A stretch of 62,585 nt of DNA, counting the filler, from Jimgerdemannia flammicorona (lineage: Eukaryota), in the NCBI GenBank assembly GCA_003990765.1. It is 2 parts of 2 records of this genome, joined end to end, with 100 filler letters (N's around TTAATTAATTAA, not from the genome) between each part and the next. Parts side by side here need not be neighbours in the genome. Positions count along the whole stretch, not along the records: positions 31,360 to 62,585 come from RBNJ01000407.1; 1 more part is not named here. One strand, 5' to 3'. The notes under the pieces were generated by a model that saw nothing but the letters and a program-made list of their open reading frames with translations, had not been told where the DNA came from and made no database searches. Position 1 is the stretch's first letter. Every line of letters begins with the position of its first letter. Shown here in pieces: positions 8,401 to 52,570 of the stretch. Made by a program: the position numbers and the translations under genes.

Positions 8401-10343
8401 AAATAATATCTGATATTAAGAATTATATTAAATCCTATAATATCTGCTAAAAATATAAGTCTAGCAACTAGGTACCAGCTGGCACTCTATAACTGCTACC
8501 AATTCTCATCTAAAATTAAGACTATATCAGAATGAACTTCATTATCTATTTCCTAAAAATCAAGAAGGGAAGAGATGTAATTATTGTCTTTATCAATCAT
8601 CTCAATATATAGACTCACTTTATTATAATAACTACTATTACAACAGTATCAGAAACAGTACAGCTGTTTATTAATAATATATTCTGCCTCTATAGACTAT
8701 CATTAGTAATTATCTCAGACTAAGATATAAAGTTTATAAGCAACTTTTGCCAAACACTCTTCAAGAGCCTAGAAGTATAACTAAAAATATCTAAAGTATA
8801 CTATCTGTGAATAGATGACCAAATAGAAAGAACTAATTAAATTTTGAAGCAGATACTTAGTATCTATTATAGCTATAAGCAGAATGATTAAAATAAAAAA
8901 CTAATTCTAGCCAAGTTTGTATACATATAACAAGAGCATAAGTATAAGTATCAAGATGATACCATTCTATCTAAACTATAAACAATATCTATAAACTTCT
9001 ATAGTTACTATCTAAATCTCAATACTGACTATATAAGAAATTATTTAATACTATATAAGATAATATCTAATAAGTACAAGATATTCTCATAGAAGTATAA
9101 AGAATATAAATAGTATATACTAATAAAAATAAAGAGAAGTTATCTATAAAAAAGGAGAATACATATTACTTAGTATCTAGTATCTGATCCTGAGTAATAC
9201 AGATCTCAAAAGAAGCTTAGACCTCACTATATTAGACCATTCAAGATTCTTGAAAAATATATATCTATTATATATAAGTTGGATCTCTCAGCAATACTAG
9301 AAAGAATCTATTCAGTATTTTATATATCTCAACTCTATTTATATATTCTAAATACTTTTGAAAGAAGAACTATACTATCTCTGAGTTTAGTAATTATTGA
9401 TCAGTAATCAAAATATAAAGTAGACCACATTTTGGATTACAAGAATTATCAATTTAGATAAGCTACTATGTATATCCAGAACTATCTCATGAAATAGAAA
9501 GGATATCTCAAATATAATACTATCTGGAAAAAAGAAGACAATCTTTTGTCAAATGTAAAAGAAATAGTAATTTAATACAGATATCTGATATAATGGAAAT
9601 TCTGACAGAATTTCTGAAAGACAATTATATCTCTAAATAACCCTGATGAAGAGAAGTATAAATATTCTGTAACAATTCTATATAGATTATCTACTCTTTC
9701 AATATGAGTACTCAGCAATAACATTAAGAACAAATTAAAAATAAGATTATTGCTACTGTTCTTGGAGCTATTGAATACTAATGGAATCTATAAAACTATC
9801 TTCTATCAATATATGAATCTCTGGAGACTCAGACTCAAATAAAGTCCAATAATATTTTAGAAGAATATAATATTTCCAGACTTTTTACTATTAATAAGAA
9901 CTAAAGAAGTACAATGAGATAGAATATCTCATCTATCAACAAGCTATCCTTAGTGCTACCAAACAATAAGTCTGTATTTTCATTGACAACTATATATATA
10001 TAGTTGTCAAAAGACTCTATGTTCTTTTCTATACCTGACCCCAAGTTCTCAATTATCTCTATGAAGTATTCCCTAAGAACATTATCAATTTGAGTAATAA
10101 ATAATAGAGTGAAATTATTTTTCAAGTAGTTTAGTATATTATTCTTCAGTTTGATAAATATTTAGAGTTTAGTACTAAGTCTAATGAGTAGACTCAAGCA
10201 AAGAAAAGAAGGATATAATGAATCATTATATATATATCTATAAGTCTCTGAAAATTCTAAAAGATATTCTTATAAAAATTACTATAGAAATTCCTATAGA
10301 ATTTCTAACTAGTAGTTATAATTACTCAAAGTAATATAACTAT
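5410..10343 (+). mobile_element. Decayed Ty3/Gypsy family A, copy 2 (chromovirus-like; 5'-truncated)
   Basis: Remnants in order: dUTPase about 5830-6260 (YDLY..STGIRIEVP..VIDQRFKGEIKVLLYN), PR about 6620 (VLINTG), RT about 7150-7850, RNase H about 8050-8350, integrase about 8430-9000, chromodomain about 9400-9590 (VDHILDY..K*KGY..NTIW..EDNL). PPT at 10201-10213; 3' LTR starts at 10214, is split by element B and resumes at 20160-20351. Many transition-derived stops. Confidence 0.85.
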
Positions 10344-11512
10344 TATGATAAACAACAGAATTATACTGTCAAAATCATAAATTAGCCATATATTATATCT
10401 AGTATACTAAGTAAATAAGACTGCTTTATTGTACCAATCTGTATAATTAGCCAGAGATATTAGAAATAGTATATTTATCTGTATCAGTCCAGTATACTGT
10501 ACTGAGCTGGTACACTATACTATTCTAGTACACTGTACTATCTAGATATACTTACCATAGATAGCAATCTATAATTAGCAATATAATAATCAGATAGCAA
10601 CTACAACTATATAAAATACCCTAGAGATAAGAGTGAATAAATCTTAGTCCAAAATTGAATCTAAAGCAACAGCTTCCCTTTTCACTCCAGTCTCCTTTCT
10701 GATATAAAGTCTTAGTTTGCTTATCAGATAAGCCTGAAGAATTTGAGTAAATCTGCTGCTTAAGAAAGAGCTACCATTTTCAAAAAGAAGTTCACCATCT
10801 TGCCTCAAAGTCAGTCTATTGATATAACTTCATAGTAAACTTATTCATACAAATGAAGCCAGTCTTGACATAACTTTACTAAGAAGAAAATCTGAGTTAT
10901 TTAAGAAGTCTGCTGATTCAGAAAGAATATATACCATCCACTATTTCCAGAGAGCCCACTATTCTTACTATAAGCTAGTCTATCTGATACAACTTTACAA
11001 TGGAGCTAGTCTATAATATAACTCCATGCAAATGAAGTCAGTCTTTAATATAACTTACTAAGAATCCACAACATCTAAGTTATCTGAATGATTAAATCAT
11101 CTCATCAGCTATTTCTAGAAAGCTGTCAATTTAGGAGAATCTATACCAAATCAAGTTATCTATAGAAATCATATACTTTTGAAGATCGTTATGCTATATA
11201 AGAGATTATTATATAGAAATTACATACTTTTGAAGATTACTGCCACTCAAGAAGAAAACCACTAAATTGTCAGACTGTTATGCATAAGAAAACTACTATA
11301 CTATACAGAAACTATCATGCAAAATCACTGCTATACTTAAGAACTATCTCAATAAGGAAATTGCTTGTAGATATCTAGCTTTGACTATTATATTACTAAA
11401 CAAGAAATCTTAGAACATTTTGTTGCTTTTTGATAAAGTAACTAGGGGCTCAAGCCAAACTACATCAATCTCCAACCTTATAATTTACCTCTATTGAGCC
11501 AGGTATATTATA
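10344..11512 (+). repeat. 5' LTR of element B
   Basis: Direct repeat of 19012-20159; the differences I inspected are mostly C/T and G/A transitions. Confidence 0.9.
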
Positions 11513-17500: not shown

Positions 17501-19011
17501 AAAAGAATATCAGAAAGTTTACTAAGGATAGGTAAATATAGAAGAAAAGTTACAAACAACATATCAACATTGGCTCAATCTCAGAACACAAGTCCAGGAC
17601 ATACTCAAGAAATGTGATATCTGCCAGAAGTATTAAGGAAGGTAGAACCATCAAGCATTACTATAACTAATTGTACTACTAGACAACATCTTTTAGAGAT
17701 AGAGAGTGGATGTAATTAGACCTCTATCAGTTACATCAAGAAGGAATAAGTATATCCTTATATTTGTAGAATATCTGACCAAGTAGCCCAAAGCTTTCCC
17801 AATAAAAATTGCAAATATCTTAACTATTATAAGTCTCCTCCATAGACTCACACTCAGATATGGAATCTCAGAAGAACTTATCTCTAACTGAGACACAGAA
17901 TTCATCAATAATATAATCACAAGTTATGCCTAAATTCATAAGATCCATCTCAAATAGACTATATCATATTACCCTCAGACCAATGGTATGACAGAATGAA
18001 TGAATCAGACTATCAAAAAAAGACTTGCCCAAATCAATCCTACCAACTGGGACCTCTGCTTACTTGAGATCTTATGGGAAATTCAGAACAGTTCTACTGC
18101 CTTTACTAAACAAAAGCTCTTCAAAATAATATTTGCTAAGAAAACCAGAACTGCTAATCATAAGAACATTAGAGACCTCCTCAAGAAGGTAGAACAATTA
18201 TATAATCAAGTCTGAGTCCAGATTATCAAGGCTTAAGAAAGATAAAAGAAGTACTATGATCAGAAGCAGAAGGATCAGAAGATCAAGATTAGAGATCAAG
18301 TATTAGTTTGGAGAAGTATAATTGAAACAAACTTTGTCACTAAACTGAAGCCTAAATGAGAAGAATCTTATTTTATATACAATATTAGAGAAACTAGTAT
18401 CTATTTAAAAAGTATGGATAGATAAACTCTGAGGACACCAGTATATATCAATTACTTCAAAATATACCTCTCTCTACACTATAAACCAGACAATTAATCA
18501 GCATCTCCAGACTCTTGTTCTGAGTTTATTCCAATTACTTCCAGTTCTCCAGAAAACCCCCTCTAATAAATCCAGACCCATTAGGAGAATCTCACCCTGG
18601 TTAGATGTTTACTGCAAGTCCACCAGCTATAGGCCTACTATGCAATTAGAGGGCAGTTGCAGAACCTGTCAATCTCAGACCTTATCTACATTAAGAATTC
18701 CACTGGCCTGACTCAGAAAAACACCACTACTATAGATAGATTGTATACAATCTACAAATAAAACACCCCAGTACTGATATAGGCATAGTTCTCTCTGAAT
18801 AATATACAATAAATGAATTCTACCATCTATCTGAGTATCATCAACTATGTTAAAATCCTATTCCCAGAGAAAGAAGAAGAACCTCTTGAATAGAGTAACT
18901 CTGATTCAAATGAAGATAATAATTCAAGTATTGATGCTGAAAATATTTATGTATATTGGGATGATGACTAAAGAATAGTCTGAGGACAGACCATTCTTTA
19001 GTGGAGACTGA

Positions 19012-20159
19012 TGTGATGAGCAGCAGAATTGTATCACTGAAATTATAAATTAGTCATATATTATATCTAGTACACTAAGTAATCAAGACTACTTTACTGT
19101 ACCAATCTATATAATTAGCCAGAGATCAGAAACAGTATACCAGTCTAGTACACTATACTGTTTCAGTACACCATACTATTCAGATATACTTACTATAGTT
19201 AGTAATCTATAATTAGCAATATAATAATCAGATAGCAATCACAACTATATAAAATACCCCAGAGATAAGAGTGAATAAACCTCAGTCTAAAATTGAATCT
19301 AAAGCAACAGCTTCCCTTTCCACTTTGGTCTTCTTTCCAATATAAAGCCTTAGTTCACTTGTCAGATAAGTCTGAAGAATTTGAGTAAATCTACTACTTA
19401 AGAAAGAGCTGCAATTTTTAAGAAGAAGTCTACCATCTTACCATAAAGTCAGTCTGTTCATGCAACTTTACAGTAAACTTGTTCATGCAAACAAAGCCAG
19501 TCTTAACATAACTTTACCAAGAAGAGAATCTGAGTTATTTAAGAAGTCTGCCAATTCAGAAAGAATTCATATCATCTACTATTTCTAGAGAGCTTGCTAT
19601 TCTTACTACATACAAGTTAGTCTATCTGATATAACTTCACAGTAGAACTAGTCTATGATATAACTCCATTCAAATGAAACCAGTCTTTGATATAACTTGT
19701 TAAGAATCTACAACATCTGAGTTATCTGAATTATTAAGTTATCTGTTATTTCCAAAGAGCTGTTAATTTAGAAAAATCTGTACCAAATTGAGTTATCTGC
19801 AGAAATCACATACTTTTGGAGATTATTGTACTATACAAGAGATTGTTATACAGAAATTATATACTTTTGGAGATTACTGCCACTTAAGAAGGAAACCACT
19901 AAATTGTTAAACTGTCATATATAAGGAAATCACTATATTATACAGAAACTATTATATGAAATCACTACTATATTTAAGAACTGTCTCAATAAGAAAATTA
20001 CTTATAAATATCCAACTTTGACTATTATATTACTAAACACCAAGGACCTTAGAAATCTTAGAATATTTTATTGTTTTTTGATAAAGTACTAAGAGCTCAA
20101 GCCAAACTACATCAACCCTCAATTTTATAATTTGCCACTATTAAGCTAGGCATATTATA
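19012..20159 (+). repeat. 3' LTR of element B
   Basis: Starts TGTGATG after a purine-rich stretch; direct repeat of 10344-11512. Confidence 0.9.
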
Positions 20160-31108: not shown

Positions 31109-31149
<41 letters not shown>

Positions 31150-31860
31150 ACTCATAGTCTTGTGGATTTTTATTGGAAGAGATCGTAGACTATATAGGCC
31201 AAATCCCTCCCCCACCACCTATCATATATTTTCCTCTCTTTTTTTTTGTTTTTTTTTTTNNNNNNNNNNNNNNNNNNNNNNNNNNNNNNNNNNNNNNNNN
31301 NNNTTAATTAATTAANNNNNNNNNNNNNNNNNNNNNNNNNNNNNNNNNNNNNNNNNNNNCTCCTTCCCTGCCAATCTAATCCTGACATCCACATCGCCTG
31401 TCCTGATAGTCGTCCCCTCCCATATCTGAAAGCCAATGTCCACTATGTCCCCATACTCAGCCATCACCTCCTCTATCCTCCTCCTCGTCTCCTCCTTAGT
31501 CACCGTGGGCACCCCCCTTACCAGAAGCTGCACCACCCTGGGGTCCCACCTCAAGCACCTCACCATGGGGACTGCCACCTCCCCAACCACCACTCCCGCC
31601 TTCAAGGCCTCATCCAGCAGGCCTGCCTCCTCAAATCCCACCTCAACCCCCTCTAGGCCCTTCAAGAACTTCACCGAAGCTGCCCCAGCCATCTGCCTCA
31701 AGATCAGCCCCAGGACCATCTTCGCCGTCACTGCCAAGCCTCGGAAGCACAAGGTGGCCGCGAACTCCGAGATCGACTTCTTGAGCAACGGGGCCACCGC
31801 CAGCCCCGTGACACCATCAGCCAGGTCTCCCTTCCGCATCGGGACCCCCTGCCCCCCCAT
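31109..31860 (-). mobile_element. Young LINE element broken by an assembly gap: poly(A) 3' end (31109-31220) and ORF1 fragment (31360-31860)
   Basis: Poly-T and the shared LINE 3' terminus lie left of the gap. Right of the gap is an uninterrupted GC-rich ORF (VVQLLVRGVPTVTKEETRRRIEEVMAEYGDIVDIGFQIWEGTTIRTGDVDVRIRL) resembling the RRM-like region of LINE ORF1. Confidence 0.65.
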
Positions 31861-34477: not shown

Positions 34478-34918
34478 AGATGGATTTGAATCAATCATTG
34501 TTTTGATTTCCAAATTAGACAATTAAATGTTTACATCAATAACTCAATGAATAATCATCCAAATTTGATAATATTGATGTCATTCGAAAGCCCTTAATAA
34601 GGCTTATCTATTGATACCAAGAACATTGAAATCAGATCATGCATTGCTGAGTTATGAAGGAAACCGTCTGAATCGTCAATTTTGGAAATTCTTCGATTTG
34701 CCGATTTTGGAAATTTCGTCAAATAGAACGTTTTCCTAAATATCTCGGCAACGCGTAATCTGATTTTAATGTTCTTGGTATCACTAGAAAGGCCTTATTA
34801 AGGGCTTTCAAATGACACCAGGATCATCAAATTTGGATGATTATTCATCGAGTTATTGATGTAAACATTTAATTGTCTAATTTGGAAATCAAAACAATGG
34901 TTGATTCGAATCCATCCG
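34478..34918. mobile_element. Fold-back / MITE-like long inverted repeat (arms about 190 bp, spacer about 60 bp)
   Basis: About 34478-34667 is the reverse complement of about 34728-34918, e.g. CATTGTTTTGATTTCCAAATTAGACAATTAAATGTTTACATCAATAACTC vs GAGTTATTGATGTAAACATTTAATTGTCTAATTTGGAAATCAAAACAATG. Confidence 0.85.
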
Positions 34919-37421: not shown

Positions 37422-38310
37422 TACTTGCTTTCACCTAGAGCCTCATCCTATATTTCCTTATCAGTAGCTACTATTGAATCTATTGACTTTTTTTGTTTTT
37501 TGTTTTTTGTTTTTTTTTTTTAAAAAAATTCTTCAATTATCTAAAATAAGTTACTTCAGTTGACTAAAGAAAAAAAAGAATACATATCATAGCAAACTCC
37601 AGCACATACTGGATCATTGCAAATATTGAGTTTTAATGTATATAGATGTCTAATACAAACTCTTTCGAGACTAAACTGATTACCTTACACTGTACAGCAA
37701 ATTTGTCTTGTTATTATAGGGATGATCAGACCAATACAACCAGTTTGTGCAGCTTGAAAATTATACTCAGGGCCCCTCCTCTCTCAGATGTTTTGTCTAT
37801 TATGTATAACATAGTGGATGCTTACTCTTAAAAGTACGTCAGATTTCTGTATCTTGAAAACTTGACTGTTCTGACTCTTGTAGAGTCTCTTGAAGTTGTA
37901 GGGGAGGGTGGGTGAGTTCGAAGTATATCTGCCCACAGGCTTACTAATTCCTTTGCTATCTCTTTGCTTTGAACTATTTCGATCTGAGATTTATTCACTC
38001 GAAGATACTGGGTTATTTATATAAGTTTTGCTAGCTATGAGATGGTTACTGAGTTATGTGGCTAAGTTTATGAGTCATTTAACACTTTGCGAAATGTTTC
38101 ATCAGTTGCAAAATGCTATACTATATCGGGGAGCTCGATCTTATACTTTGCAGAATATTTAGCAAGTTGCGAAATTGAGAACTGTTAACTATGTGGCTAT
38201 ACTACTTTGGGACTGGTTGCGATCAAGTATCTATTCCCTATTTCCTTCTTCCGAATCTGACTATACTATCACAACTTCCTCCTGAATAGATGATCTCGTC
38301 CCTAAAGCAT

Positions 38311-38772
38311 CTATTCAAACTCCCAAGCTTCAATGGTCTGTATGGTCTTATATTGCACAATTTGTTACATTACTGTTTCCCAATAGTGTCATCTGACTTG
38401 GTCAAAGTCTGAGAGGGTCACTCCTCACAGGTGGGCTAGTACTGATTCATCCTCTTGGAATAGCTTGTGGATTCTCTTGGCAATGGTGATCTGGGAATAG
38501 GAGAGCTGGCATTCTGCGATCCAATTTTCTTTGGTCATTTCTGGATCTTGGTTGAGTACTTGGCCAAGTTTGAAGTACTCTTAAAATTCGTTCCAATGCT
38601 GATAGGCCTTGAAGTGTGAGATCTGAGAGAGATGAGTCTGTACAATACTTTGGATACTGTCATAAGACTTCTCTATGGTCAGAGGCTCAGTGGTGTACCA
38701 TTGTCTCTTGATGGCTCTTTGGGCAGCACTAGTGATCTTGAGTGCCATCGCAGTACTTTTGTTACTGGCCAT
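38311..38772 (-). pseudogene. Extra ORF of unknown function between integrase and PPT of element C (about 153 codons, 4 internal stops)
   Basis: ORF 38581-38772 continues in frame through TAA/TGA codons as EYFKLGQVLNQDPEMTKENWIAECQLSYSQITIAKRIHKLFQEDESVLAHL*GVTLSDFDQVR*HYWETVM*QIVQYKTIQTIEAWEFE. Confidence 0.65.
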
Positions 38773-41700
38773 GATATTTCTTGAGTCGGTTTTGATAAAT
38801 GGTGGTGGGGATTATTGTGCCTGAGGGTTTTCATAGCCAAAAGGTGGTTCCTTTTATATCTTGCACAAGGTAAGGTCCTTCCCACTTGGGCTCTAGTTTT
38901 CGTGACCATGAAGCTTCGATCATATTCCAATACACCAGGACTTTGTCTCCTATCTTGATAATCTCCAGGGGTTTGTGGGTCTTTTCCGCATTCCTCCATT
39001 GTAGTGTCTGTGCCTTCGTTATGTAATTCTCAGTCTTCTTCCTGATTTAGTGTAGTCTCCATATTTCCATGTCTATATGTTTTCATATAGCATCTCCATT
39101 GGATGACAAGGTTCCCTGAGAACATTCTTCTCTGAACAGCATTTCTCAAGGGATAAAGTGGATACTTTGTGATTGGATATCCCGGAGAGTAGATAATGCT
39201 ATTGGTAGATAGTAATCCCAGTTCTCATAGCTATTGCAGATCTTGGCAATAACATTCTTGAGAGTTTTGTTGGTTCTTTCTACTTGTCTGTTTTCTTGAG
39301 GGTGATATGCTGTAGTCTGAATATGCTGGATCTTATACTTCTTGTAGAGAACTTCGAAGAACTGGTTCACGAATTCAGTTCCTCTATCTGTAGTTACTTG
39401 TGTTGGGGTCTTGAACTGGCAGATGATTTCTTTGTGGAAGAAATCGGCGATTAACTATGCATTGGCTTCCATAAGAGGTCCCACTTCTATCCATTTTGTA
39501 AAGAGGTCTACAATAATGATGATGTATCAGTTGCCAGTCAAAGTCAAGGGTAGGGAGCTGATTATATCCATTGCAATGTGGGCAAATGGTACTGGTTCTA
39601 TGTGTGCTGATCCTGGGGCTTGATTTTGTTGATCTTGTTTCTGTTTCTGGCATTTGTCGCAGGTCTTGACGAATTGTCTGATATCTTCCTCCATCTCTGG
39701 CCACCATATTGTTCTTCTTGCCTTGTCGTATGTATTTGTTCCTCCTAGATGGCCAAGTTCATATACTGATTTCATTGCTTACTCCTTTTTGTGTTCTGGT
39801 ATGACTAGTAGTTTTCCTTTCTTCAGTATTTCTCCATCAGTTTCGAATTGTTTCCATGTTCTGTTGATAATCATTTGTGTCCATTCTTCCAGATGTTGGA
39901 GCATCTTTCGCTGTCCCAGGTATATGATAATTCCATAGTAGAGCTCCTTATTCATGGCGATTTTGTGAGGGTGGGGTCCTTTGGGGTATCTGTGAGAGGG
40001 CATCTGTATTGGCATTGGTTCTTCCAGAATGATGTACGATGGTTACATCATAAGCTTGCAACTTCATTATCTATCTGGTATAGATTCCTTTGGGTTGTCC
40101 AGTTGTCAGTAACCAGGTGAGAGCTGAGTGGTCTGTTTGGATGGTGAAGTGTCTTCTGGCCAAGTAGTAGTAGAACTTTTCTACAGCCCAGATGACTGCG
40201 AGGCATTCTAACTTGTAGGATTCGTATTCTTTTTCAGCTCCTTGGGTTCCATGGCTGAGGTATGTGATGACATACTCCACTTTGTCTTTCTTTTGAGCTA
40301 GGACTGCTCCTAGTCCTTGTGTGCTTGCATTGGTCTGTAGGATGAATTCTTGAGTCCAGTCAGGTTTTCTGAGGATGGGTGCCTGGGTCAGTCTGACCTT
40401 GAGTTCATCAAATGCTTTTTGTTGTCTGCCAGTCCACTGGAACTTGGTATCCTTCTTGTTAAGTTTGTAGATTGGTCCCACAATATTAGAAAATCCTCTA
40501 ATAAATCTGCGATAATAGGAGGTGAGTCCCATGAAGGCTTGGGCTTCCGTAACAGTAGTGGGTCTTGGGTATGTGACCACTGCTTGTATCTTGAGGGGGT
40601 CCATGTGTGTTCCATCTCAGTTGATGATATGGCTGAGATAGGAGATCTCGATTTCTGCAAACTTGCACTTCTTGGATTTGATGTAAAGGCCATGTTGTCT
40701 TAGTCTTTCCATTATCTGCTGTATGTGCTGCAGATGTTCCTCAGGTGTCTTGCTGTAGATAATTACATCATCGACATAGACCATCATCCATCTTCCCATA
40801 TTATAGTGGAAGATTTTATTTATCATTCGCTGGAAACTTGCTGGTGTATTGCACATTTCAAATGGCATTTATAGGTAGACGTAGGTTCCGTCTGGAGTGA
40901 TGAAAGCTGACTTTTCACTTGCCATGTCTGTGAGTCCGATTTGGTGGAATCCCAAGTATAAGTCCAAGGTGCTGTAGTACTGTGCTTCATCTCCCAGTGT
41001 TATAAGGATGTCATTGATGAGGGGCAGTGGTTGGCGATCCTTCTTGGTAACCATGTTGAGTTTTCTGTAGTCAATATAGAGTCTTGGGGCGAATTCTCCA
41101 GGCTTGCTTCCTTTTTTCGGGGCTAGTACAACAGGTGAGGACCAGGGGCTGCTTGCTTCTTTAATGATGCCAGCTTCTTCCATCTGCTTGATTTCTTCTC
41201 TGAGCCATTCTCGGTAGGCTGGTAGGACAGGTCTTGCTTTCTGATAAATTGGTTCGGTATCTCCAGTATCTACTTCATGATAGTAGTGTGGGGTCTTTCC
41301 TTTGATATTCTTGAAATCTGTGGCAAGAACATCTTTGAATTCATGGAGTATTTTCTTGAGTTCTTTCTTGAGTGGAAATTTGTTTCTGATGATATAACTG
41401 TGCTTACTTGTGTTTTTCTCCTTCTTATACTTGAGTTCAGTGATCTTGATATTGGCGAATACTTCTCTTCCTATAGATCCAAATTCTTTCTTTCCTCTTC
41501 TTGTGTCCTCCAGCTTCTTGACTTCTATGATCTTTGGTTGTAGGATCAGAAAGATCAACATTTGCACCAATCGGTTCTTCTTCTTGACTGGAAATGGGAT
41601 TGTAGGATTGTGATTCCTAGCAATGAGTAGAATTTCTCCAATATAGTCTGAATCAATGACTCCTCCTTCGATTGTAATTTCACTTCTAGCCAGACTGCTT

Positions 41701-43355
41701 GTCTTGAGAATCCCGACATGGTCCTTTGGGATGGTCATCTTCAATCCAGTTGTAAGTAGGGTGGTTGTCTGGGGTTCCAGTACAGTCTCTTCTACTATAA
41801 TGATGTCCATTCCGGCTGCATTTTCTGACTTATATTCTGGCAAGACTGCATCAGGGTGAATCTTTCGAATCTTGACCTTGATATCTTCTTCATCATCACT
41901 GTCCTCCAGGAGGGCTGGTGGTTCATCATCTTCCTCCTTCTTTTCTTCCTTAATCTGTTTTTTGAGAGCTTTCTGTCTTCTTTCCTGGTGGATCTTCCTG
42001 ATTCCAATGGTGCACTGGTAGCAATCATTAACATGCTCCATGCTGTACATTTTGATCCCATGAGGACAGACTTCTTGTGGTGCATAGCCTTCTGCCATCT
42101 TCTTGCATTATTCTTCTTCACTCATCCATTTGACTTTCTTCTTCTTTGGAATAGTCACTATATAAGCTTCCTCTTGCTCGCTCTCTTCTTCCTCCATGTC
42201 GGGCAAGACTCCTTTGTTGACATTGATGAGAATTTATATCTTCTGTTCCTGGTAAGTGATCTGCATCTTCTGGGCATTGTAATCAATTACTGTCTTGGCT
42301 TTGTGAAGCCACTAATTGCTGATGAGAATGTTATAGTTGGTGGCATTAGTTATGATTATATCTACTGAGATGATTGCTCCTCCAATCTTGATGAAAACAT
42401 CTCGGATCTTTCCCAGAGGTGTGGCTCTTGTACCATCAGCTATGATGAACACCAGCTTTGTTGCTTCTTCTACATCCCAACCTAGGCGGTCTGCTGCCTT
42501 CTTGCTGAGGAGGCATCCTCCTGCTCCTGTATCAATGATGGCCTCAAAGATTCTATCTTTGATTTGGCATATTGCATATGCAGAGGTTTTGTGATTATCC
42601 TCACTTTCTTCTCCTAAGTCCTCTTGAGCATTATTGGCCTTGGTTATCTTCCATCCCTGTTCCTTAGTTGTTTCAGCAAGTCCAAACCTCATTTGCTATC
42701 TGAATGTTGGGATTTCTGCAAGCTGACCAAAGGTTGCATTAACCTTTTGTTGGCTGAGGTCCTTGAAGATATCATACTTAAAGGTTTTGGTCTTGCGAAG
42801 CTTCTTCTCTTTTTCTCCTTCACTGGCTAGAGTGGTTCCTCAGATGATATCTTGAACTGCTTGCTCCAGCTCTGTATCTTAGTCCATCTCTTCGACTTGA
42901 CTTTCTGTGGCAGTTTCCATCTGCTTTTCTACTGAATTCTTTTTGGGTCTTTCTGGTGATCTCTTGTAGTGTTCTTTGCAAGCATCCTTCTTGGTGGTCT
43001 GAGCAGGATAGGCCTCCCATTCTTCTTCATCAGAATCTCTGATCTCCTCGAAGGTAATTATATTGGCCTGCTCCTTGTTTCGTGTAGCATTACTTGGTTG
43101 AGCCTTGTGCTTGGTTTTACTTATGCATTCATAGGAGTAGTGGCCTTCTTCTCCACAAGTATAGCAGGTACCTTTCTTCTTGTCTGAGGTGGCAGCGAAC
43201 TTCTGAACAGAGCAGCGGTCTCTTCCTCAAATTTCCTTTGCCATGTCTCCCAGGTGGGCAGTCATTTCAGCAAACCTTTTGGTGAGTTCCTCCATAGGGT
43301 CACTGTTCTTTTGCTGCTCTATAGCTTTTGGCTGGGGTGTGTTCCGATTGATCAT

Positions 43356-45394
43356 TGTAAGCGCACAACCTCCAAGCCACTGAAATCACACACGACCTCT
43401 GAACAAATCTGAAAATCACCTGCTTGATCACGAAGCTGAGTCAAACCGAAGTTACAGCGCACAAAGCTGAGTCAATACGAAGTCACGGAATACAAGATTT
43501 ATACAAATAGAATCTTACCAATCAGGACCAGATGCATATATACCAAGCACCGAGACATGTCGAATCAGAGAACCAAAACAAACAACAACCACAACTTCCA
43601 AATACACAAACATAACCACTGAGATCTACAACTGCATCCGCGCTGATATTTGGAATACCATTGTCAACCGAGCCACACCCCCTCTGCCCCTCATGAATAT
43701 CCATAGCCTGCACCCCTCTACTTCATGAAAGCCCGATGGAATGCACTGAACATGCTTAGTGAGGCCCACCGAATCAGACAAATCTCAAGCTACTACCAGA
43801 TCGGCCGCCTCCTGGAAGACATGATCGAACACCACCATGATACAGACATTACTCAGATGTCTCAACACCAGAAGCTCATTGCCTGCAAACATCAAGAACT
43901 CTTCTATGAGTACAACACCTTTATTCCCCGCCTTCAAGTTACTACCAGCGAAATAATTGCTATCCTGTCCTACAGCCAAATTGATGACATGATACAAGAA
44001 CTCAACCACAAGTATCTCAAGTATGTCCAGACCACAGATAGAACCTTCCCGCACCCTGATGACTATATCCTGCAAATGCCCTAAGTCAGATATGCTATGA
44101 AGGATGTCTATGATATAATCCACTTCGACGAAGATGAAGTAGAAGACAATGATCCCTCTGACGCCGACATGATCTCTAGCCAAGGATCTCTGCCAACCCT
44201 GATCACACCACCAAACTTGCCGATGAACTTGCAACAGTTCATAACTGCATATGAGACTTATTGGGACAATGACCACTGGCACGAATACCAACCCATGTTC
44301 ACCCCTGACTACTTCAACTACAATGAAGAAACCGGAGAATACAACCTGTACCTCCAGACAACCCTCGAGATTGAACCAACCACTCCACCATCTGAGTATG
44401 AGCGATATGAACCACAGCTGCTAGCTTACTACAATCCTGCAACCCATAGTACTGTAACCTATAGAAGGTACGCAAACAGTGAATCCGATGAAAGCGAAGA
44501 CAATACACCCATCCTCCACTCACCAACACCTTATCCAGCATACAAGACAGACGATGCTATCCTGTGGGACGGAGATGAAGTCCCAATGTATTATTATCTC
44601 AGTGAACAAGGAGAAGTAATCCACGAACCACTCTTCCTAGATGACTACTTCATCAGAGATGATGCAATCGATGGTGATGTCATCGAGGATTACCCAGATA
44701 GTGCCTGAAACCATAAATAGTCTAGCAGTTATAGTATAGTTAGATTAGCCTCACATGACATGACTGTGAACTGACTCAGCAGTCAGATGATCTCTTGACA
44801 TGTCAGATCACACTTGTACTATGTGACTGCATTCCGACTCAGCAAGGCACTTAGTGCTACATCCATATCTAGCATAGTCCAGATAGCCCCTCACTAGTAT
44901 AAATACCCCCTCCCCCAGACCTCAGAATCTCAGACTTGAATAGACTCGAATACACAAGAACATTCCTGAATACTTTCCCACAATATCCCTTCACACAACT
45001 ACTTCTAGTATAGCAATATCATGAATAGCAAATAAACCTATTCCATAACCCACAAAATACTCTTAAGTAAATCTGCTCCCTGTTAGGTCCTACTCCTAAC
45101 TCTGTCATGAAATTTTCTAATTGGGTATTGTCTGCAGCGATACACCAACTCAACTAAGCTGGTCTTAGTTTCTTGAACTTCCTGAAATACGGAAAAATCC
45201 TGAACATCCAGAACTAGTCCAAAAAGGACTTTGGTTGAGACGTCAACCCAATCTTGAAATCAATAAGCATAGAGGATGTACTCCATATGAAATTGATCTT
45301 GGCCATAAGAAAACAGTCTTCCAGAACATTCAGAATATCCAGAAAACCTTTCCAGAACTATGTAACAGTTACCCTAAAAAGCAACTCTCTTACA
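43356..45394 (+). mobile_element. Element D copy 1: 2,039-bp solo-LTR-like insertion containing an ORF
   Basis: Termini TGTAAG...CTTACA; exact 5-bp TSD ATCAT (43351-43355 and 45395-45399); interrupts gag of element C; ORFs 43725-44084 and 44097-44708 are in the same frame. Confidence 0.9.
43725..44708 (+). pseudogene. Unknown protein inside element D (helical N-terminal domain plus acidic, Tyr/Pro-rich tail)
   Basis: The TAA at 44082-44084 is CAA in copy 2, so the 119-aa and 203-aa ORFs were one frame. Confidence 0.75.
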
Positions 45395-47788
45395 ATCATT
45401 GTGGTAGGGATCACACTGGTTGCCTTGGGTGCTTTGATTCTGACTCCTGTAACCCTTTCCATTGTATGGTCTTGTGGATGTCTGGCTATCCAATATTGCT
45501 AAGCATAGGTGACCTTCTGTGGCAGATCCAGAATCACTGGTGATGAGCGGATGGCCATGGCTATTTCTGAATGGACCCCTTTCATAAAGGTTGCTTTGGC
45601 TACTTGATCTCAGATAGCAGCAGCATAATCTGCAAGAATTATCTGATATCAAATTCTGGTATAGAATGTGTTTGGATCCTCGCTCATTCCTTGGCATGTT
45701 GTATTGAGCTAATCCTTCAGGGCTTGCTTGATCTTGTCTGTGTAATATATGTTTCGGAGCCAGGTCTTTTGTACTGTCAGTATAGCATTGGCATCATTTC
45801 CTACATAGATTGTAGCTGTGAATGCTGCTCTGGCAGGGCCTCATAGACTGAAGGGCATGAGTGCTACTTGCTGTACTACTGTCAAGGTCCTTACAGCAGC
45901 ATACTGCTCGAAATCATCAATGAAGGTGATGATTGATTCATCTGAGGTATATCCATGGAATACTGGTGGTCTCATATCCATCTTGTCTGAGTGTTGGGGC
46001 TTGGTTTGGGTAGTGGTGGTTGTTCATTGTTCAGCTTGAAAGTGAGGGATTCATCTTGAATCACCAGCCAATGGGCACCAAGTTGTAACATAGTGGATGC
46101 TTACTCTTAAAAGTATGTCGGATTTCTATATCTTGAAAACTTGACTGTTCTGACTCTCGCAGAGTCTCTTGAAGTTGTAGGGAAGGGTGGGTGAGTTCGA
46201 AGTGTATCTGCCTACAGGCTTACTAGTTCCTTTGCTATCTCTTTGCTTTGAACTATTTCAATCTGAGGTTTATTCACTCGAAGATACTGGGTTATTTATA
46301 CAAGTTTTGCTAGCTATGAGATAGTTACTAAGTTACATGGCTAAGTTTATGAGTCATTTAATACTTTGCAAAATGTTTCACCAGTTGCGAAATGCTATAC
46401 TATATCGGAAAGCTCGATCTTGCACTTTGTAGAATATTTAGCAAGTTGCGAAATCAAGAACTGTTAACTATGTGGCTATACTACTTTGGGACTGGTTGCG
46501 ATCAAGTGTCTATTTCCTATTTTCTTCTGCCAAATCTGGCTATACTGTTACACTATATATATAAGATAGTCCTGAATAGTAAGATTCAATATATGGGCCT
46601 AATATTATATATAGCAGCTTTCTATACTGAAGGCCACATTTTTCTGTTTGAGGCTGGCTACTAAAACTTGGAAAAATGTTGAGTTGTTTATAGTATTGTC
46701 TATTATAATAGCCAAAATCTATATTTGAAATATTTGGTTGGCAAATTTATGCAAAAAAAAATAATTAATAAAATCTGGTTTGTTTTAAGATCTCTCTCAA
46801 AATACTAACCTAATGGCAAGCCCTTCTTTTTTATCTTAGTTGTGATCCCAAGCTCTTGGATATAACTAATAAAAGTATCTACAATGTTATCTCCAAAATA
46901 AGGACCAGCAAGTTTGACAAAGTCAAGAGTGAGAGATTTAAGCTACTAATTGAGATCAATCTAATGCCCAGTAATATTCAGAAATAAAATTATATTGGAG
47001 GATATCTATGTATCAATCATAAATAAAATTTTGTCTGCTGAATTCTGTTTATTAAATGTAAGGTTATATTGGTAAGCTTTTTATAAAAAAATATATATAA
47101 TTTAGCTTGCAAAGATTACAGTACTGTCTTTATTTTATCTGAAGTATCTGATAGAGGTTATCATATGTACTCCTTTCTATAGGCCTCCAGGATATCTTTG
47201 TAAATAGTATCAGTACTTGGTAAATATAAATCATACTTGAGGAGGCCAAAGATACTATGCAATTGATCACTCTCAATGATTGTGAATGGCTAGTCTGTAT
47301 ATGCAATCTAACAAATAAACTAACTTTAAAATTCTACTGAAGAGTATGGCTAAATATTTTTAATTAAATGAGGTTATTGGTATAGAAATGGTCAGACAAT
47401 TGGATAAATATACCCACCATAGCTTGAATGTTGATTTTATTTATCTCTATGTTCTTTTTGATTTTGTTAGAATACTTGTCTTTTATGTATCAATATATGT
47501 TCAAAGTCATACCACTAAGTATTTTGAACTTCTAACTAGTGTAGTTTATAGGGGTGGATAAAACAGTATCATATATATATCAAACAAAAGTGTCAGTTAT
47601 ATCAATAGATATATCTTAATTTTTTATCTATAATAATTACAAATAATATCATCTCTTATCTTAGTACAATATTGTCAGATTTCAGAGTAAGGATTGTGTG
47701 GAAGGTGTGGAACTATTAGAAATATTTAACTTGAAGCATCATTGGTACTGTAAACTGTTGAAGACTGATCTGTTAACATATATATATT

Positions 47789-49775
47789 TGTAAGAGGGTT
47801 CTCTTTTCAGGGTAACTGTTACATAGTTCTGGAAGGGTTTTCTGGAAGTTCTGGATATTCTGGAAGACTGTTTTCTTATGGTCAAGATCAATTTCATATG
47901 GAGTACGTCCTCTATGCTTATTGATTTCAAGATTGGGTTGATGTCTCAACCAAAGTTCTTTTTTGGACTAGTTCTGGATGTTCAGGATTTTTCATATTTC
48001 AGAAAGTTCAAGAACTAAGGCCAGCTTAGTTGAATTGGCATATCACTGCAGACAATACCCAATTAGGAAATTTCATGATGGAGTTAGGAGTGGGACCTAA
48101 TGGGGAGTAGATTTACTTAAAAGTAGTTTATGGGTTATTAAATAGGTTTATTCGCTATTCATGATATTGCTATATTAGAGTTGTGTCAAGAGATATTGTG
48201 GAGAAGTGTGTTCAGATTGTTCAGGTCTAAGATTCTGAGGTCTGGGGGAGGGGGTATTTATACTAGTGAGGGGCTATCTGGACTATGCTAGATATGGATA
48301 TAGCACTAAGCACCTTGTTGAGTCAGAATGCAGTTATGTAGTACAAGAGTGATCTGAAATGTCAAGAGATCATCTGACTGCTGAGTCAGTTCACAGTCAT
48401 ATCATACAAGACTAATCTAACTATACTATGACTGCTAAGCTATTTATAGGTTTAGATACTATCTGGGTAGTCTTCGATAACATCACCATCGATAACATTA
48501 TCTCTGATGAAGTAGTCATCTAGGAAAAGTGATTTGCAGATTACTTCTCCTTGTTGGCTGAGGTAATAATATATTGGAACTTCATCTCTATCCCACAAGA
48601 TGGCATCATCCATCTCATATGTTGGATAAGGTGTTGGTGGGCAGAGGAGAGGTACATTGCCTTCACTTTCATCAGATTCACTGTCTGCATATCTTCTGTA
48701 GATTACAGCACTATGAGTCACAGGGTTGTAGTATGCTGGTGGCTGTGGTTCATATCACTTGTACTCAGGTGGTGGAGTGGTTAGTTCAGTCTCGAGGGTT
48801 GTCTGAAGATACAGGTTGTGTTCTCCAGTCTCTTCATTGTAGTTGAAGTAATTGGGAGTAAATACAGATTGGTATTCATACCAGTGGTCATTGTCTCAAT
48901 AAGTCTCATATGCTGTTATGAATTGTTATAAGTTCATTGGCAAGATTGGTGGTGTGATCAGGGTTGGCAGGGATCCTTGGCTTGAGGTCATGTTGGCATC
49001 AGAGGGATCATTGTCTTCTGCTTTGTTTTTGTTGAAGTAGATTATATCATAGACGTCCTTTATGGCATATCTGACTTGGGGCATTTGCAGGATATGATCA
49101 TTGAGATATGGGAAGGTTCTGTCTGTAGTTTTGACATACTCAAGGTACTTATAGTTGAGTTCTTATATCATGTCATCAATTTGACCATAGGACAGGGTAG
49201 TAACCATTTCAGCTATAGTAACTCAGAGGCGGGAAATAATAGTGCTATATTTATAGAAGAGTTCTCAATGTTTGCAAGCAATGAGCTTCTGGTGTTGAGA
49301 CATCTGGGTAATATCTGTATTATGATGGTGTTCGACCATGTCTTCCAGAAGGCAGCTGATCTGGTAGTAGCTTGAGATTTATCTGATCTGGTGGGCCTTG
49401 TTAAGTATGTTCAGGGCATTCCATCAGGCTTCTATAAAGTAAAGGGGTGCTAGGCTATGGATATTCATGAGGAGTAGAGGGGGTGTGGCTCAGTTGACAA
49501 TAGCATTCCAAATGTCAGTATAGATGTAGTTGTAGATCTCACTGGTCATATTTGAATATGTTCAGAAGTTGTGATTATTGTTTATTTTGATTCTCTGTTC
49601 AACACGTCTTAGTACTTGGTATATATATATTTGGTTCTAATTAGTAAGATTCTGTTTATGTGAATCTTGTGTTCCATGACTTCATGTTGACTCAGCTTCA
49701 TAATCAAGCAGGTGATTTCCAGATTTGTTCGAAGGTCGCATATGATTTTAGTAGCTTGGAGGTTATGCACTTATA
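47789..49775 (-). mobile_element. Element D copy 2 (inverted, more decayed)
   Basis: Reverse complement homolog of 43356-45394 along its length; termini TGTAAG / CTTATA; flanks ATATT and TCTCT do not form a TSD. Confidence 0.9.

Positions 49776-52529: not shown

Positions 52530-52570
<41 letters not shown>

What the first reader, a model, noticed from the sequence alone, without database searches (positions are those of the whole stretch)
38311..38772. An uncharacterised post-integrase ORF appears homologous across four LTR-element families
Seen by manual translation through decay stops. N-terminal block aligns without gaps: C VQTHLSQISHFKAYQHWNEF*EYFKLGQVL; B (about 18570-18660) IQTH*ENLTLVRCLLQVHQL*AYYAIRGQL; D (43725 onward) MKARWNALNMLSEAHRIRQISSYYQIGRLL. 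C-terminal block: C KRIHKLFQEDESVLAHL*GVTLSDFDQVR*HYWETVM*QI; A (about 10009-10130) KRLYVLFYT*PQVLNYLYEVFPKNIINLSNK**SEIIFQV; weaker matches in B (DRLYTIYK*NTPVL) and D (CKHQELFYEYNTFIPRL). The ORF sits in the env position in A, B and C and inside the LTR-like unit in D, and shows no transmembrane segment. The families have dissimilar LTRs and different dUTPase placement. Inference: a conserved accessory gene, such as an anti-silencing, regulatory or transmission factor. From memory it resembles the expanded glomeromycotan hypothetical motif A.KIY.LF...G..KI..V...S...ISKL, which I cannot verify here.
Basis: partly seen in the sequence, partly recalled or inferred. Interest (0 to 1): 0.78.

Follow-up and report, generated by a model that had tools for sequence, protein, structure and literature searches.

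The report
Conserved extra gene in LTR retrotransposons
A small protein-coding gene with no match to any described family sits between the integrase gene and the 3' repeat of several different gypsy-type retrotransposons, and inside the terminal repeat of another; related elements elsewhere keep it intact, so it probably encodes a helper protein for the element.

Summary
On the minus strand at 38772-38311 there is a 153-codon ORF with 4 internal stops. Its ATG overlaps the end of the integrase gene of a Ty3/gypsy element (element C, LTRs 37803-38273 and 46083-46552), and it ends 37 nt before the 3' LTR.

The ORF is a real gene family. Public collections hold intact relatives: 9 hits to the ORF alone and 25 to a profile, none with a Pfam domain. 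Two near-complete metagenomic elements carry the ORF in the same place. dN/dS is 0.09-0.20 where it could be computed.

- C: 1e-45
- D: 4e-5 (second copy 2e-3)
- A: 5e-3
- B: 0.98, still the top locus above noise

hhalign gives P = 2.4e-4 (A), 4e-4 (D) and 0.01 (B). Homology is therefore well supported for C, A and D, and only suggestive for B.

D is a 2.04-kb solo-LTR-like unit inserted in C's gag, and its ORF lies inside that unit.

The protein has no TM segment and no match in Pfam, PDB or BFVD. It is modelled as a helical core that self-pairs, followed by a disordered acidic, aromatic-rich tail. Its function is inferred only: an accessory regulator or adaptor.

The parts
38311..38772 (-). 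ORFx of element C. 153 codons plus stop. Decayed by 4 in-frame stops at 38581-38583, 38425-38427, 38389-38391 and 38365-38367.
   Evidence: Translation; stop positions. 78% identical over 99% of its length to the intact 153-aa P0001. HMM 1.3e-45.
38762..38764 (-). Stop codon of the element C integrase frame (..NRLKKYHGQ*). The ORFx ATG at 38772-38770 lies 2 codons upstream in another frame.
   Evidence: Integrase_H2C2 3.4e-16, rve 8.4e-11 in that frame.
38275..38283 (-). Purine-rich tract (AGGAGGAAG on the element strand) directly upstream of the 3' LTR. PPT-like.
   Evidence: Read from the sequence. Assigned by inference from its position.
37803..38273 (-). 3' LTR of element C (TG..CA).
   Evidence: Self-blastn: 92.5% identity over 467 nt with 46086-46552. 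Ends read.
46083..46552 (-). 5' LTR of element C. A PBS-like TGGTGCCC lies 3 nt inside.
38774..43304 (-). Element C gag C-terminal part and pol: zf-CCHC, PR, dUTPase, RT, RNase H, integrase.
   Evidence: Pfam. tblastn with L004 proteins.
45475..45966 (-). N-terminal part of element C gag, separated from the rest by the D insertion.
   Evidence: L004 gag aa 33-210 align here and aa 259-329 align at 43304-43125.
43356..45394 (+). Unit D. A 2.04-kb solo-LTR-like insertion with TGTAAG..CTTACA ends, flanked by ATCAT on both sides, antisense within C's gag.
   Evidence: Boundaries and flanks. 83.5% identical over 2044 nt to 49773-47788. Splits a colinear gag.
43725..44711 (+). ORF of unit D (328 codons, 1 internal stop). 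The ORFx-homologous domain is at 43779-44030, followed by a long acidic, aromatic-rich tail.
   Evidence: Translation. HMM 4.4e-5. hhalign P 4e-4. P0044 is 64% identical over the C-terminal 76%.
47788..49773 (-). Second copy of unit D. Its ORF is about 49408-48400 and is decayed. The ORFx-like domain is at 49124-49378.
   Evidence: (2.3e-3).
9826..10161 (+). ORFx remnant of element A (AT-rich, many stops). It lies after the integrase SH3 domain (9201-9344) and before the start of A's LTR (about 10277).
   Evidence: HMM 4e-6 and 5.1e-3. hhalign P 2.4e-4. 0 of 1000 shuffles reached its score. Pfam SH3_Tf2-1.
18561..18779 (+). Probable ORFx remnant of element B, between the integrase match (to 18407) and the 3' LTR (19014).
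   Evidence: HMM iE 0.98, yet the top locus above noise. 0 of 1000 shuffles reached its score. hhalign P 0.01. The weakest of the four.
10346..11512 (+). 5' LTR of element B.
   Evidence: 81.9% identical over 1185 nt to 19014-20159.
19014..20159 (+). 3' LTR of element B.

Best explanation
The ORF at 38772-38311 (minus strand) is a decayed copy of a genuine accessory gene, here called ORFx. It belongs to a lineage of Ty3/gypsy LTR retrotransposons and lies between integrase and the 3' LTR, with its ATG overlapping the end of the integrase frame.

Shown:
- The gene is intact in related elements, where amino-acid changes are far rarer than silent ones.
- Homologous remnants lie in the same position in element A (different dUTPase placement, Tf2-type integrase SH3).
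- A homologous ORF lies inside the 2-kb solo-LTR-like unit D.
- B (same domain order as C) probably carries a remnant too.

If D is an LTR, its ORF would lie in U3. It would then still be at the 3' end of the genomic RNA, which is topologically the same place.

Inferred:
- The product is a soluble protein of about 150-170 aa.
- It has a helical core that pairs through a long antiparallel helix.
- It ends in a disordered, strongly acidic, aromatic-rich tail.

My committed reading is that ORFx is a trans-acting helper of the element. The dimeric core would dock on an element component (LTR DNA, genomic RNA or Gag/IN), and the acidic-aromatic tail would recruit a host machine. That would make it either an activation-domain-type transactivator of the LTR or a Rev/CERV-like RNA-handling adaptor.

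Confidence by step:
- Real conserved accessory gene: about 0.9.
- Homology of C with A and D: about 0.85.
- Homology with B: about 0.65.
- Regulator/adaptor mechanism: about 0.3.

How the ORF is expressed is unknown. A spliced subgenomic RNA or re-initiation at the overlapping ATG are both possible.
For: (1) Intact relatives. 9 of 9 candidates matched at E <= 0.01, the best being P0001 (153 aa, 78% identity, E 1e-73). With a profile, 25 of 549 candidates matched. They fall into two subfamilies, 153 aa and 165-169 aa.

(2) Synteny. 4 loci were confirmed out of 133 pattern matches in metagenome contigs. The two long ones (L001 7.9 kb, L004 8.2 kb) have the order zf-CCHC, PR, dUTPase, RT, RNase H, integrase. 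Their ORFx ATG lies 56 and 53 nt before the integrase stop, and LTR repeats start just after the ORF.

(3) Selection. pN is 0.22-0.36 against pS 0.66-0.86. dN/dS is 0.09-0.20 in the 4 of 6 pairs where dS could be computed.

(4) Cross-family homology. The database-only HMM, the shuffle test, the window-wide ranking and hhalign all recover the named loci.

(5) D is an insertion with LTR hallmarks. It has TG..CA ends, a 6-nt terminal inverted repeat and an identical ATCAT flank on each side, and it splits a colinear gag.

(6) Protein features.
- No TM segment.
- The AF2 model of P0035 has mean pLDDT 73 and pTM 0.68. It is helical over residues 3-135, and the tail 138-167 is below pLDDT 50.
- The tails carry charge -11 to -12 with 4-6 aromatic residues in 30 aa in the long subfamily, and -3 to -4 with 4-5 aromatics in the C-type. 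The cores are near neutral.
- B's and D's tails are also acidic and aromatic (translations).

(7) Self-pairing. The tool's verdict is that the model supports binding but does not show it.
- Score 0.48 (three runs: 0.48, 0.48, 0.03). The best of 3 controls scored 0.00.
- The mark was reached by 21 of 30 proteins solved as pairs of one chain and by 0 of 23 solved as single chains.
- On eukaryotes it was reached by 17 of 29, but by only 1 of the 7 with no older solved relative.
- The runs agree in at least 69% of contacts, and the partner's pLDDT is at least 60.
Against: - The window copies are all dead: C has 4 stops, and A, B and D2 have many.
- B reaches only hhalign P 0.01 (probability 4%) and HMM iE 0.98 window-wide.
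- hhalign probabilities for A and D are only 44% and 35%, although their P-values are small.
- The family is small in the libraries. Only 5 proteins reached E <= 0.001 among 1.84 billion representatives with the C-type profile, and one of them (P0011) is an unrelated-looking repeat protein.
- dS is saturated, and the first 18 or so codons overlap integrase, which also constrains them.
- No fold, Pfam or PDB relative supports any particular function.
- The core is not basic (pI 6.0-8.6), which does not favour direct nucleic-acid binding.
- No full-length D element was seen, so 'LTR' is an inference for D. The second D copy has no matching flanks.
- No transcript evidence is available.
Confidence: 0.62

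Rival explanations
1. ORFx is not a separate gene. It would be a C-terminal extension of Pol/integrase reached by a programmed frameshift, giving an IN-ORFx fusion that acts for example in targeting, as chromodomains do.
For: The ORFx frame overlaps the end of the integrase frame in all three elements examined: 10 nt in C, 56 nt in L001, 53 nt in L004. The frame is open 78 nt upstream of the ATG in L001 and L004. C, L001 and L004 have no chromodomain.
Against: A Met starts the conserved N-terminus in both subfamilies. Gene callers produced free-standing proteins of 150-169 aa. D carries the ORF with no integrase nearby. Fused forms were not searched for (the 'longer' length class was not run), so fusions are not excluded.
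Confidence: 0.1
2. The gene is real, but the cross-family sharing is recent. Recombination or template switching between co-packaged elements would have moved a 3' module (ORFx, with or without LTR) between lineages, rather than inheritance from a common ancestor.
For: Pol differs strongly between carriers: C vs B about 40% RT identity, C vs A 24-38%. dUTPase sits in different places. In D the ORF travels with the LTR. Sharing of ORF3 types between unrelated retroelements is described for bdelloid rotifers (PMC5408684, abstract read).
Against: ORFx itself is very diverged between carriers: 13-17% identity in the hhalign alignments. That is at least as diverged as pol, as expected for old vertical descent of a fast-evolving gene. 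No tree test was possible with the decayed copies.
Confidence: 0.2
3. The matches of A, B and D to ORFx are chance or composition effects in decayed, AT-rich translations. Only C would carry the gene.
For: Scores are low in absolute terms (8-20 bits). hhalign probabilities are 4-44%. Residue shuffles do not keep local composition.
Against: The four best non-C loci among 2178 window segments are exactly the four named in advance, and they outrank all other AT-rich TE sequence. The alignments are colinear over 84-97 columns. A and B sit in the predicted slot between integrase and LTR. Two diverged D copies both hit. Significance rose when distant database members were added (A 8e-4 to 4e-6; D 0.77 to 0.019 to 4e-5).
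Confidence: 0.06
4. ORFx is an env-like or movement-type transmission protein.
For: [quoted passage not shown]
Against: There is no hydrophobic segment (KD19 maximum below 1.0 in 4 of 4 proteins). The protein is small and acidic, and is predicted to be an all-helical soluble dimer. Pfam and BFVD gave no match.
Confidence: 0.02

Closest known systems
CERV of the C. elegans Ty3/gypsy element Cer1 (PMC10309623; abstract and passages read)
   Same: [quoted passage not shown] Neither has a TM segment or homologues outside its clade. CERV is a nuclear regulator needed for export of genomic RNA, which is the kind of job proposed here.
   Different: CERV is 517 aa and is made from a 5-exon spliced mRNA that borrows gag exons. 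ORFx is 150-170 aa (328 in D) with its own ATG overlapping integrase. No sequence or fold relation was found, and no function was tested here.
ORF3 types shared among LTR-retrotransposon lineages of bdelloid rotifers (PMC5408684; outline and abstract read)
   Same: The same extra ORF appears in unrelated, partly dUTPase-bearing LTR lineages. That is evidence of modular gene sharing between retroelements.
   Different: Those ORF3s are env-like glycoproteins, GDSL esterases or DEDDy exonucleases. ORFx matches none of these families: Pfam gave 0 hits for C, D and 17 family members at meaningful E-values.
'add. ORF' of unknown function and variable dUTPase position in fungal Gypsy elements (Novikova et al. 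2010, PMC2864245; passages read)
   Same: Fungal Gypsy elements with an additional ORF of unknown function. dUTPase is found at the N-terminus of Pol, at its C-terminus, or between PR and RT.
   Different: The passages read give no sequence family or cross-lineage homology for the additional ORF. Whether it is ORFx cannot be told. The paper's supplementary tables (.DOC) were not read and may bear on this.
Extra ORFs of plant Ty3/gypsy elements such as Retand (PMC11963269; search listing only)
   Same: [quoted passage not shown]
   Different: Different host kingdom and element lineages.
Retroviral accessory genes lying in or reaching into U3 (MMTV sag, HIV nef) and acidic-tail transactivators such as foamy-virus Tas (recalled, not from any call)
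   Same: D's ORF would be a coding sequence inside the LTR. The architecture of a structured domain plus an acidic, hydrophobic tail is the proposed working model.
   Different: Analogy only. No homology, DNA binding or transactivation has been tested.

Membership tests
ORFx family as defined here (database proteins P0001-P0043 except P0011) | Significant match to a profile built without window sequences | tested here: met
   C 1.3e-45, D 4.4e-5 and 2.3e-3, A 5.1e-3. B reaches only 0.98 there, with hhalign P 0.01, so B is inconclusive.
ORFx family as defined here | Position between the integrase end and the 3' LTR on the element's sense strand | tested here: met
   Met in C, A, B, L001 and L004. 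D departs from this: its ORF is inside an LTR-like unit.
ORFx family as defined here | Core motifs EFQ..Y..G and R-[IV]-[YH]-x-L-F, followed by an acidic, aromatic tail | tested here: met
   F, L-F and R are invariant or nearly so in alignments A3 and A6. In A the motif reads KRLYVLF, in B DRLYTIY, in D CKHQELF. Tails are described.
Retroviral/errantiviral Env | Signal peptide and at least one transmembrane segment; fusion glycoprotein domains | tested here: not met
   KD19 maximum 0.19-0.97 in P0001, P0012, P0035 and P0044. No Pfam family.
Chromodomain or other known integrase C-terminal module | Match to Chromo or integrase C-terminal Pfam models, in frame with integrase | tested here: not met
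   No Pfam hit in ORFx, and it lies in a different frame from integrase. The stretch of A that looks chromodomain-like by eye (about 9400-9600) lies upstream of ORFx and did not reach E 0.1 in Pfam.
Bdelloid ORF3 enzymatic types (GDSL esterase, DEDDy exonuclease) | Pfam-detectable GDSL or DEDDy domain | tested here: not met
   None among 17 members at E <= 10, apart from five scattered families with best E-values of 0.01-0.094.
Rev/CERV-like RNA-export regulators | Binds element genomic RNA, shuttles, and is required for export of unspliced RNA | not testable with these tools
   Functional definition. Only a model-supported self-pairing and a leucine-rich last helix are available.
Acidic-activation-domain transactivators | Disordered tail rich in acidic and bulky hydrophobic residues | tested here: met
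   The tail is below pLDDT 50. It carries charge -11 to -12 with 4-6 W/F/Y in 30 residues. This is composition only.
Acidic-activation-domain transactivators | Sequence-specific DNA-binding domain; activation of the LTR promoter | tested here: inconclusive
   No DNA-binding fold was recovered. KorB/Spo0J HTH rows scored Z 4.1-4.6 for model 1 only, within noise. The best Z for model 2 was 3.1. The core pI is 6.0-8.6. Activation was not testable.
LTR (for unit D) | TG..CA ends, short terminal inverted repeat, 4-6-bp target-site duplication | tested here: met
   TGTAAG..CTTACA ends, with ATCAT on both flanks of the copy in C's gag.
LTR (for unit D) | Occurs as a direct-repeat pair flanking a gag-pol internal region | tested here: not met
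   Neither of the 2 copies in the window has pol next to it. No full-length D element is available, and the whole genome is not held.

The most novel reading that the evidence does not exclude
ORFx would be the first accessory regulator gene family of fungal-type Ty3/gypsy retrotransposons. It would be a dimeric helical protein with an activation-domain-like acidic tail that transactivates the element's own LTR or handles its RNA. It would be old enough, or mobile enough, to be shared by lineages with different pol architectures. In one lineage it would have been absorbed into the LTR itself, so that even solo LTRs scattered through the genome could keep supplying the factor in trans.
Probability: 0.2. 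Interest if true: 0.78.

Novelty: new variant of a known kind. Interest (0 to 1): 0.58.

Why it matters
Extra ORFs in LTR retrotransposons are widely noted, but almost none has a known family or function. CERV of Cer1 is one of the few studied.

Here the extra ORF is a defined family with five properties:
- it is protein-coding and conserved under selection;
- it is recognisable across elements with different pol layouts;
- it is present in near-intact metagenomic elements;
- it has no Pfam family and no significant fold match in the libraries searched;
- it comes with a testable architecture of a dimeric core plus an acidic tail.

That gives TE annotators a new marker domain for a group of dUTPase-bearing gypsy elements. 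It also gives experimenters natural intact sequences with which to ask what a non-env third gene does for a retrotransposon.

The LTR-embedded version (D) would matter for how solo LTRs are interpreted. If they are coding, they are not inert.

Tried and rejected
**Resources that were not available**
- Whole genome: not held. There is therefore no genome-wide copy census and no consensus per family.

**Calls that failed and were repeated in smaller form**
It was repeated with shorter references.
- My first Pfam call gave the same minus-strand frame three times by mistake. Only its result for the ORF itself (0 families) is used.

**Family and structure searches with no meaningful result**
- Pfam on ORFx, the D ORF and 17 family members: nothing meaningful. 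The best were scattered E 0.01-0.09 hits, for example TBK1_ULD in 4 of 17 and HTH_Tnp_Mu_2 in 1 of 17.
- PDB sequence profile search: only 2 hits, at E 0.09 and 0.28.
- Foldseek against PDB: best E 0.77 (model 1) and 0.64 (model 2).
- Foldseek against BFVD: best E 0.54.
- VIA-align wide search: best Z 5.0 (model 1) and 3.1 (model 2), below the noise level the tool states for helical models. No fold is assigned, and this does not show that the fold is new.
- ESM Atlas: no usable hit for P0035. For P0001 only unnamed prokaryotic or phage clusters appeared, at 0.95 with fewer than 175 shared features. These were treated as uninformative.

**Individual hits and scans set aside**
- P0011 (455-aa repeat protein, E 2.5e-5 summed over 6 stretches) looks unrelated and was left out of the profile built. 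It was never included in any alignment.
- The 8 database proteins shorter than 90 aa were also left out of that profile.
- Two viral-contig scans (A4, P0001): pattern matches but 0 confirmed relatives.
- A first metagenome scan with A3 was not run, because the alignment had no sufficiently conserved stretch. A4 was used instead.

**Expression**
- Sequencing runs: no RNA holder was listed. Expression is therefore untested, and read laying was not used.

**Other points**
- Chromodomain in A: seen by eye only, not confirmed by Pfam at E <= 0.1.
- Target-site duplication of element C: the flanks TATTA and CTATA do not match.
- Flanks of D copy 2: no matching duplication.
Only the 'A.[KR][IV]Y.LF' part resembles the family's R-[IV]-Y-x-L-F motif.
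- Literature: 3 full-text searches found no description of this ORF family. Subscription papers and unread supplements are not covered.
Full report
**What is at the coordinates**

The finding's interval is read on the minus strand. From the ATG at 38772 to the TAG at 38313-38311 there are 153 codons, interrupted by four stops (codons 64 TAA, 116 TGA, 128 TGA, 136 TAA). In intact relatives these positions are Q, R, R and Q, so every break is a C-to-T type change.

**The element that carries it (element C)**

The ORF lies in a Ty3/gypsy element. The LTRs are 37803-38273 and 46083-46552, with TG..CA ends and 92.5% identity over 467 nt.

Pfam finds the following on the minus strand:
- zf-CCHC
- aspartyl protease
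- dUTPase (7.9e-21)
- RVT_1
- RNase H
- Integrase_H2C2
- rve

The integrase frame ends ..NRLKKYHGQ* at 38764-38762, so the ORF's ATG overlaps it by about 10 nt. The ORF stops 37 nt before the 3' LTR, and a purine-rich tract lies in between. 'Post-integrase' and 'env position' are therefore correct for C.

**It is a real gene family**

- The ORF alone found 9 proteins (9 of 9 candidates). They include an intact 153-aa protein, P0001, at 78% identity, and they align without frame problems.
- A full scan of 1.84 billion representatives with that alignment gave only 5 hits. One of them, P0012 (165 aa, E 2e-4), was a distant relative.
- A profile including P0012 then found 25 proteins among 549 candidates. 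They form two subfamilies. One is C-like (153 aa, ending ..EAWEFE). The other is 165-169 aa, with a very conserved tail (..EGEYPPFIDFG..ELDEWDV).
- All are unnamed or 'hypothetical', and none has a precomputed Pfam domain.

**Synteny outside the window**

A pattern scan of metagenome contigs confirmed 4 loci out of 133 pattern matches. The two long ones (L001, L004) are near-complete elements.
- Their domain order is zf-CCHC, PR, dUTPase, RT, RNase H, integrase.
- The ORFx ATG lies 56 and 53 nt upstream of the integrase stop.
- LTR repeats begin just after the ORF.
- Their RT-RNase H is about 42% identical to C's.

**Selection**

Codon comparison of the four loci gives pN 0.22-0.36 against pS 0.66-0.86. 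dN/dS is 0.09-0.20 in the 4 of 6 pairs where dS was not saturated. The gene is therefore conserved as protein. Two caveats apply: dS is saturated, and the first 18 or so codons overlap integrase.

**The other three units**

*A (+ strand).*
- dUTPase is at 5857-6183, ahead of a protease-like motif that I read by eye.
- RT/RNase H is at about 7187-8300, and a Tf2-type integrase SH3 domain is at 9201-9344.
- A chromodomain-like stretch was seen by eye, but Pfam did not confirm it at E 0.1.
- Self-blastn indicates that A's 3' LTR starts near 10277 and that element B has inserted into it.

*B (+ strand).*
- LTRs are 10346-11512 and 19014-20159, 82% identical.
- The order is gag 12137, PR 13660, dUTPase 15335-15703, RT 16137, RNase H 16954, integrase 17526-18407. 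This is the same order as in C, with about 40% RT identity to C.

*D.*
- It is a 2,039-bp unit (43356-45394) with TGTAAG..CTTACA ends and ATCAT on both flanks.
- It is inserted antisense into C's gag. L004 gag residues 33-210 align at 45966-45475 and residues 259-329 at 43304-43125, so gag is colinear across the insertion.
- A second copy lies at 47788-49773 on the other strand, 83.5% identical. Neither copy has pol beside it.
- D therefore looks like a solo LTR, or less likely a non-autonomous element, and carries a 328-codon ORF with one stop.
- The C-terminal 76% of that ORF is 64% identical to the only database relative found, P0044.

**Is the cross-family similarity more than chance?**

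I built an HMM from 35 database proteins of at least 90 aa. P0011 and the 8 shorter proteins were left out, and no window sequence was included. I searched it against the six-frame window with filters off:

| Locus | Independent E-value | Window coordinates |
|---|---|---|
| C | 1.3e-45 | 38353-38757 |
| D | 4.4e-5 | 43785-44030 |
| D copy 2 | 2.3e-3 | 49124-49378 |
| A | 5.1e-3 | 9841-10131 |
| B | 0.98 | 18561-18779 |
| All other hits | 2.6 or above | – |

Further tests gave the following.
- With the more C-weighted profile (A1 plus P0012), A scored 4e-6 and D 0.019.
- In 1000 residue shuffles of each segment, none reached the observed score: A 15.1 vs 7.7, B 8.0 vs 3.6, D1 19.6 vs 6.7, D2 13.4 vs 11.9.
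- Among 2178 overlapping 172-aa segments of real window sequence, the order is C, D1, D2, A, B (8.1 bits), then the best unrelated segment at 5.8.
- hhalign gives P 2.4e-4 for A (97 columns), 4e-4 for a three-sequence D profile (89 columns) and 0.01 for B (84 columns, probability 4%).

One is EFQ..Y..G. The other reads KRIHKLF in C, KRLYVLF in A, DRLYTIY in B and CKHQELF in D.

I conclude that homology of C with A and D is well supported. B is probable, mainly because a weak colinear match sits exactly in the predicted slot.

**What the protein looks like**

- No hydrophobic segment is present.
- There is no Pfam family and no PDB sequence relative.
- AF2 on P0001 with 17 sequences was mediocre (pLDDT 60).
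- AF2 on P0035 with 29 sequences gave pLDDT 73 and pTM 0.68. The helices are 3-18, 35-70, 88-101, 105-110, 116-121 and 124-135, and the tail 138-167 is disordered.
- Fold searches against the PDB (Foldseek and VIA-align wide) and BFVD gave nothing above noise.
- The core is near neutral (pI 6.0-8.6).
- The last 30 residues of the long subfamily carry -11 to -12 net charge with 4-6 aromatic residues. The C-type tail is shorter but of the same kind.
- B (..NIYVYWDDD) and D (a long D/E/Y/F/W-rich tail) show the same composition.

A two-copy prediction of residues 1-137 passed the tool's mark.
- The score was 0.48 (runs 0.48, 0.48, 0.03), and the best of 3 controls scored 0.00.
- The mark was reached by 21 of 30 proteins solved as pairs of one chain and by 0 of 23 solved as single chains.
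- For eukaryotes it was reached by 17 of 29, but by only 1 of the 7 with no older solved relative.
- The runs agree in at least 69% of contacts, and the partner's pLDDT is at least 60.
- The interface is symmetric along residues 27-86.
- The tool's own wording is that the model supports binding but does not show it.

**Mechanism**

Shown: position, conservation and cross-lineage homology.

Inferred: a soluble, probably dimeric helical protein whose acidic, aromatic, disordered tail is conserved in composition rather than sequence across subfamilies. That pattern is typical of activation domains and other short recruiting motifs (general knowledge, not tested here).

I therefore favour a trans-acting helper that docks on an element component and recruits a host machine. 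It could be an LTR transactivator or an RNA-handling adaptor of the kind CERV provides for Cer1 (PMC10309623, passages read). The neutral core and the lack of any nucleic-acid-binding fold argue for caution. I put this at about 0.3.

Expression could be from a spliced RNA or by re-initiation at the overlapping ATG, and neither could be tested. If D is an LTR, its ORF would lie in U3. It would then still sit at the 3' end of the genomic RNA, which reconciles 'inside the LTR' with 'after integrase'.

**Comparison with what is known**

- Extra ORFs in LTR retrotransposons are a known kind.
- An 'add. ORF' of unknown function and variable dUTPase placement are noted for fungal Gypsy elements (PMC2864245, passages read; supplements not read).
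- ORF3 types shared by unrelated lineages are described in bdelloid rotifers (PMC5408684, abstract).
- Plant examples exist (PMC11963269, search listing only).
- None of the described ORF3 families (env, GDSL, DEDDy) matches ORFx.
- Three full-text searches found no description of this family.

I rate it a new variant of a known kind.

**Context**

The host is a eukaryote with short GTATGT..CTGAC..YAG-type introns and an LRR plus TKL-kinase gene.

Noticed in passing
window 37803-38273 vs 46083-46552; 38311-38772: Decay is almost purely by transitions. The two LTRs of C differ by 35 transitions and 2 transversions. All 4 stops in ORFx are CAA-to-TAA or CGA-to-TGA type changes. TE regions are 26-44% GC, against about 50% in the genic parts. 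This looks like cytosine-deamination or RIP-like mutation.
   Followed up: partly
window 10277-10345 + 20160-20351 vs 5403-5155; 846-3578 vs 8170-5413: Nested and inverted TE architecture. Element B sits inside what appears to be A's 3' LTR, because the sequence on both sides of B is contiguous in an inverted copy at 5155-5403. A second, minus-strand copy of A (846-3578) lies head-to-head with the 5'-truncated plus-strand copy.
   Followed up: partly
window 24950-30000: A host gene region with at least 12 tandem 156-nt exon-plus-intron units encoding LRR-like repeats. It is followed by ORFs matching PK_Tyr_Ser-Thr/Pkinase at 27071-29973. This is an LRR plus TKL-type kinase arrangement.
   Followed up: partly
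window 52197-52666: A block of 9- to 15-nt periodic repeats (18 overlapping copies of a 104-nt window), inside a 299-codon minus-strand ORF (52094-52993) with no Pfam match.
   Followed up: no
window 34479-34916: A 438-nt segment that is 84% identical to its own reverse complement, forming a large palindrome.
   Followed up: no
window 20336-20753 vs 50181-49776; 20341-20464 vs 31118-31241: Another repeat family (70-81% identity) flanks B's 3' LTR, D copy 2 and a site near 31.1 kb. It is unclassified.
   Followed up: no
L004 499-658; L001 7401-7520: The LTRs of the metagenomic elements contain 5-6 tandem copies of a 20-nt unit (AGGCAGCTACTGACAAACCG). These are candidate enhancer or binding-site repeats.
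   Followed up: no
L001 1-99 vs 7846-7944: The two ends of this contig are 100% identical over 99 nt. Either the LTRs collapsed in assembly or the element is very young.
   Followed up: no
window 57440-58132: A plus-strand ORF with an RWD domain (1.9e-11). It is an ordinary host gene in the GC-rich right end of the window.
   Followed up: no
P0011 (database protein): A 455-aa protein made of about 6 tandem 75-aa repeats (..EIAARICEVLNDDGTANMHISPL..) scored 2.5e-5 against the C-type profile, summed over 6 weak stretches. It is probably unrelated, but this was not examined.
   Followed up: no
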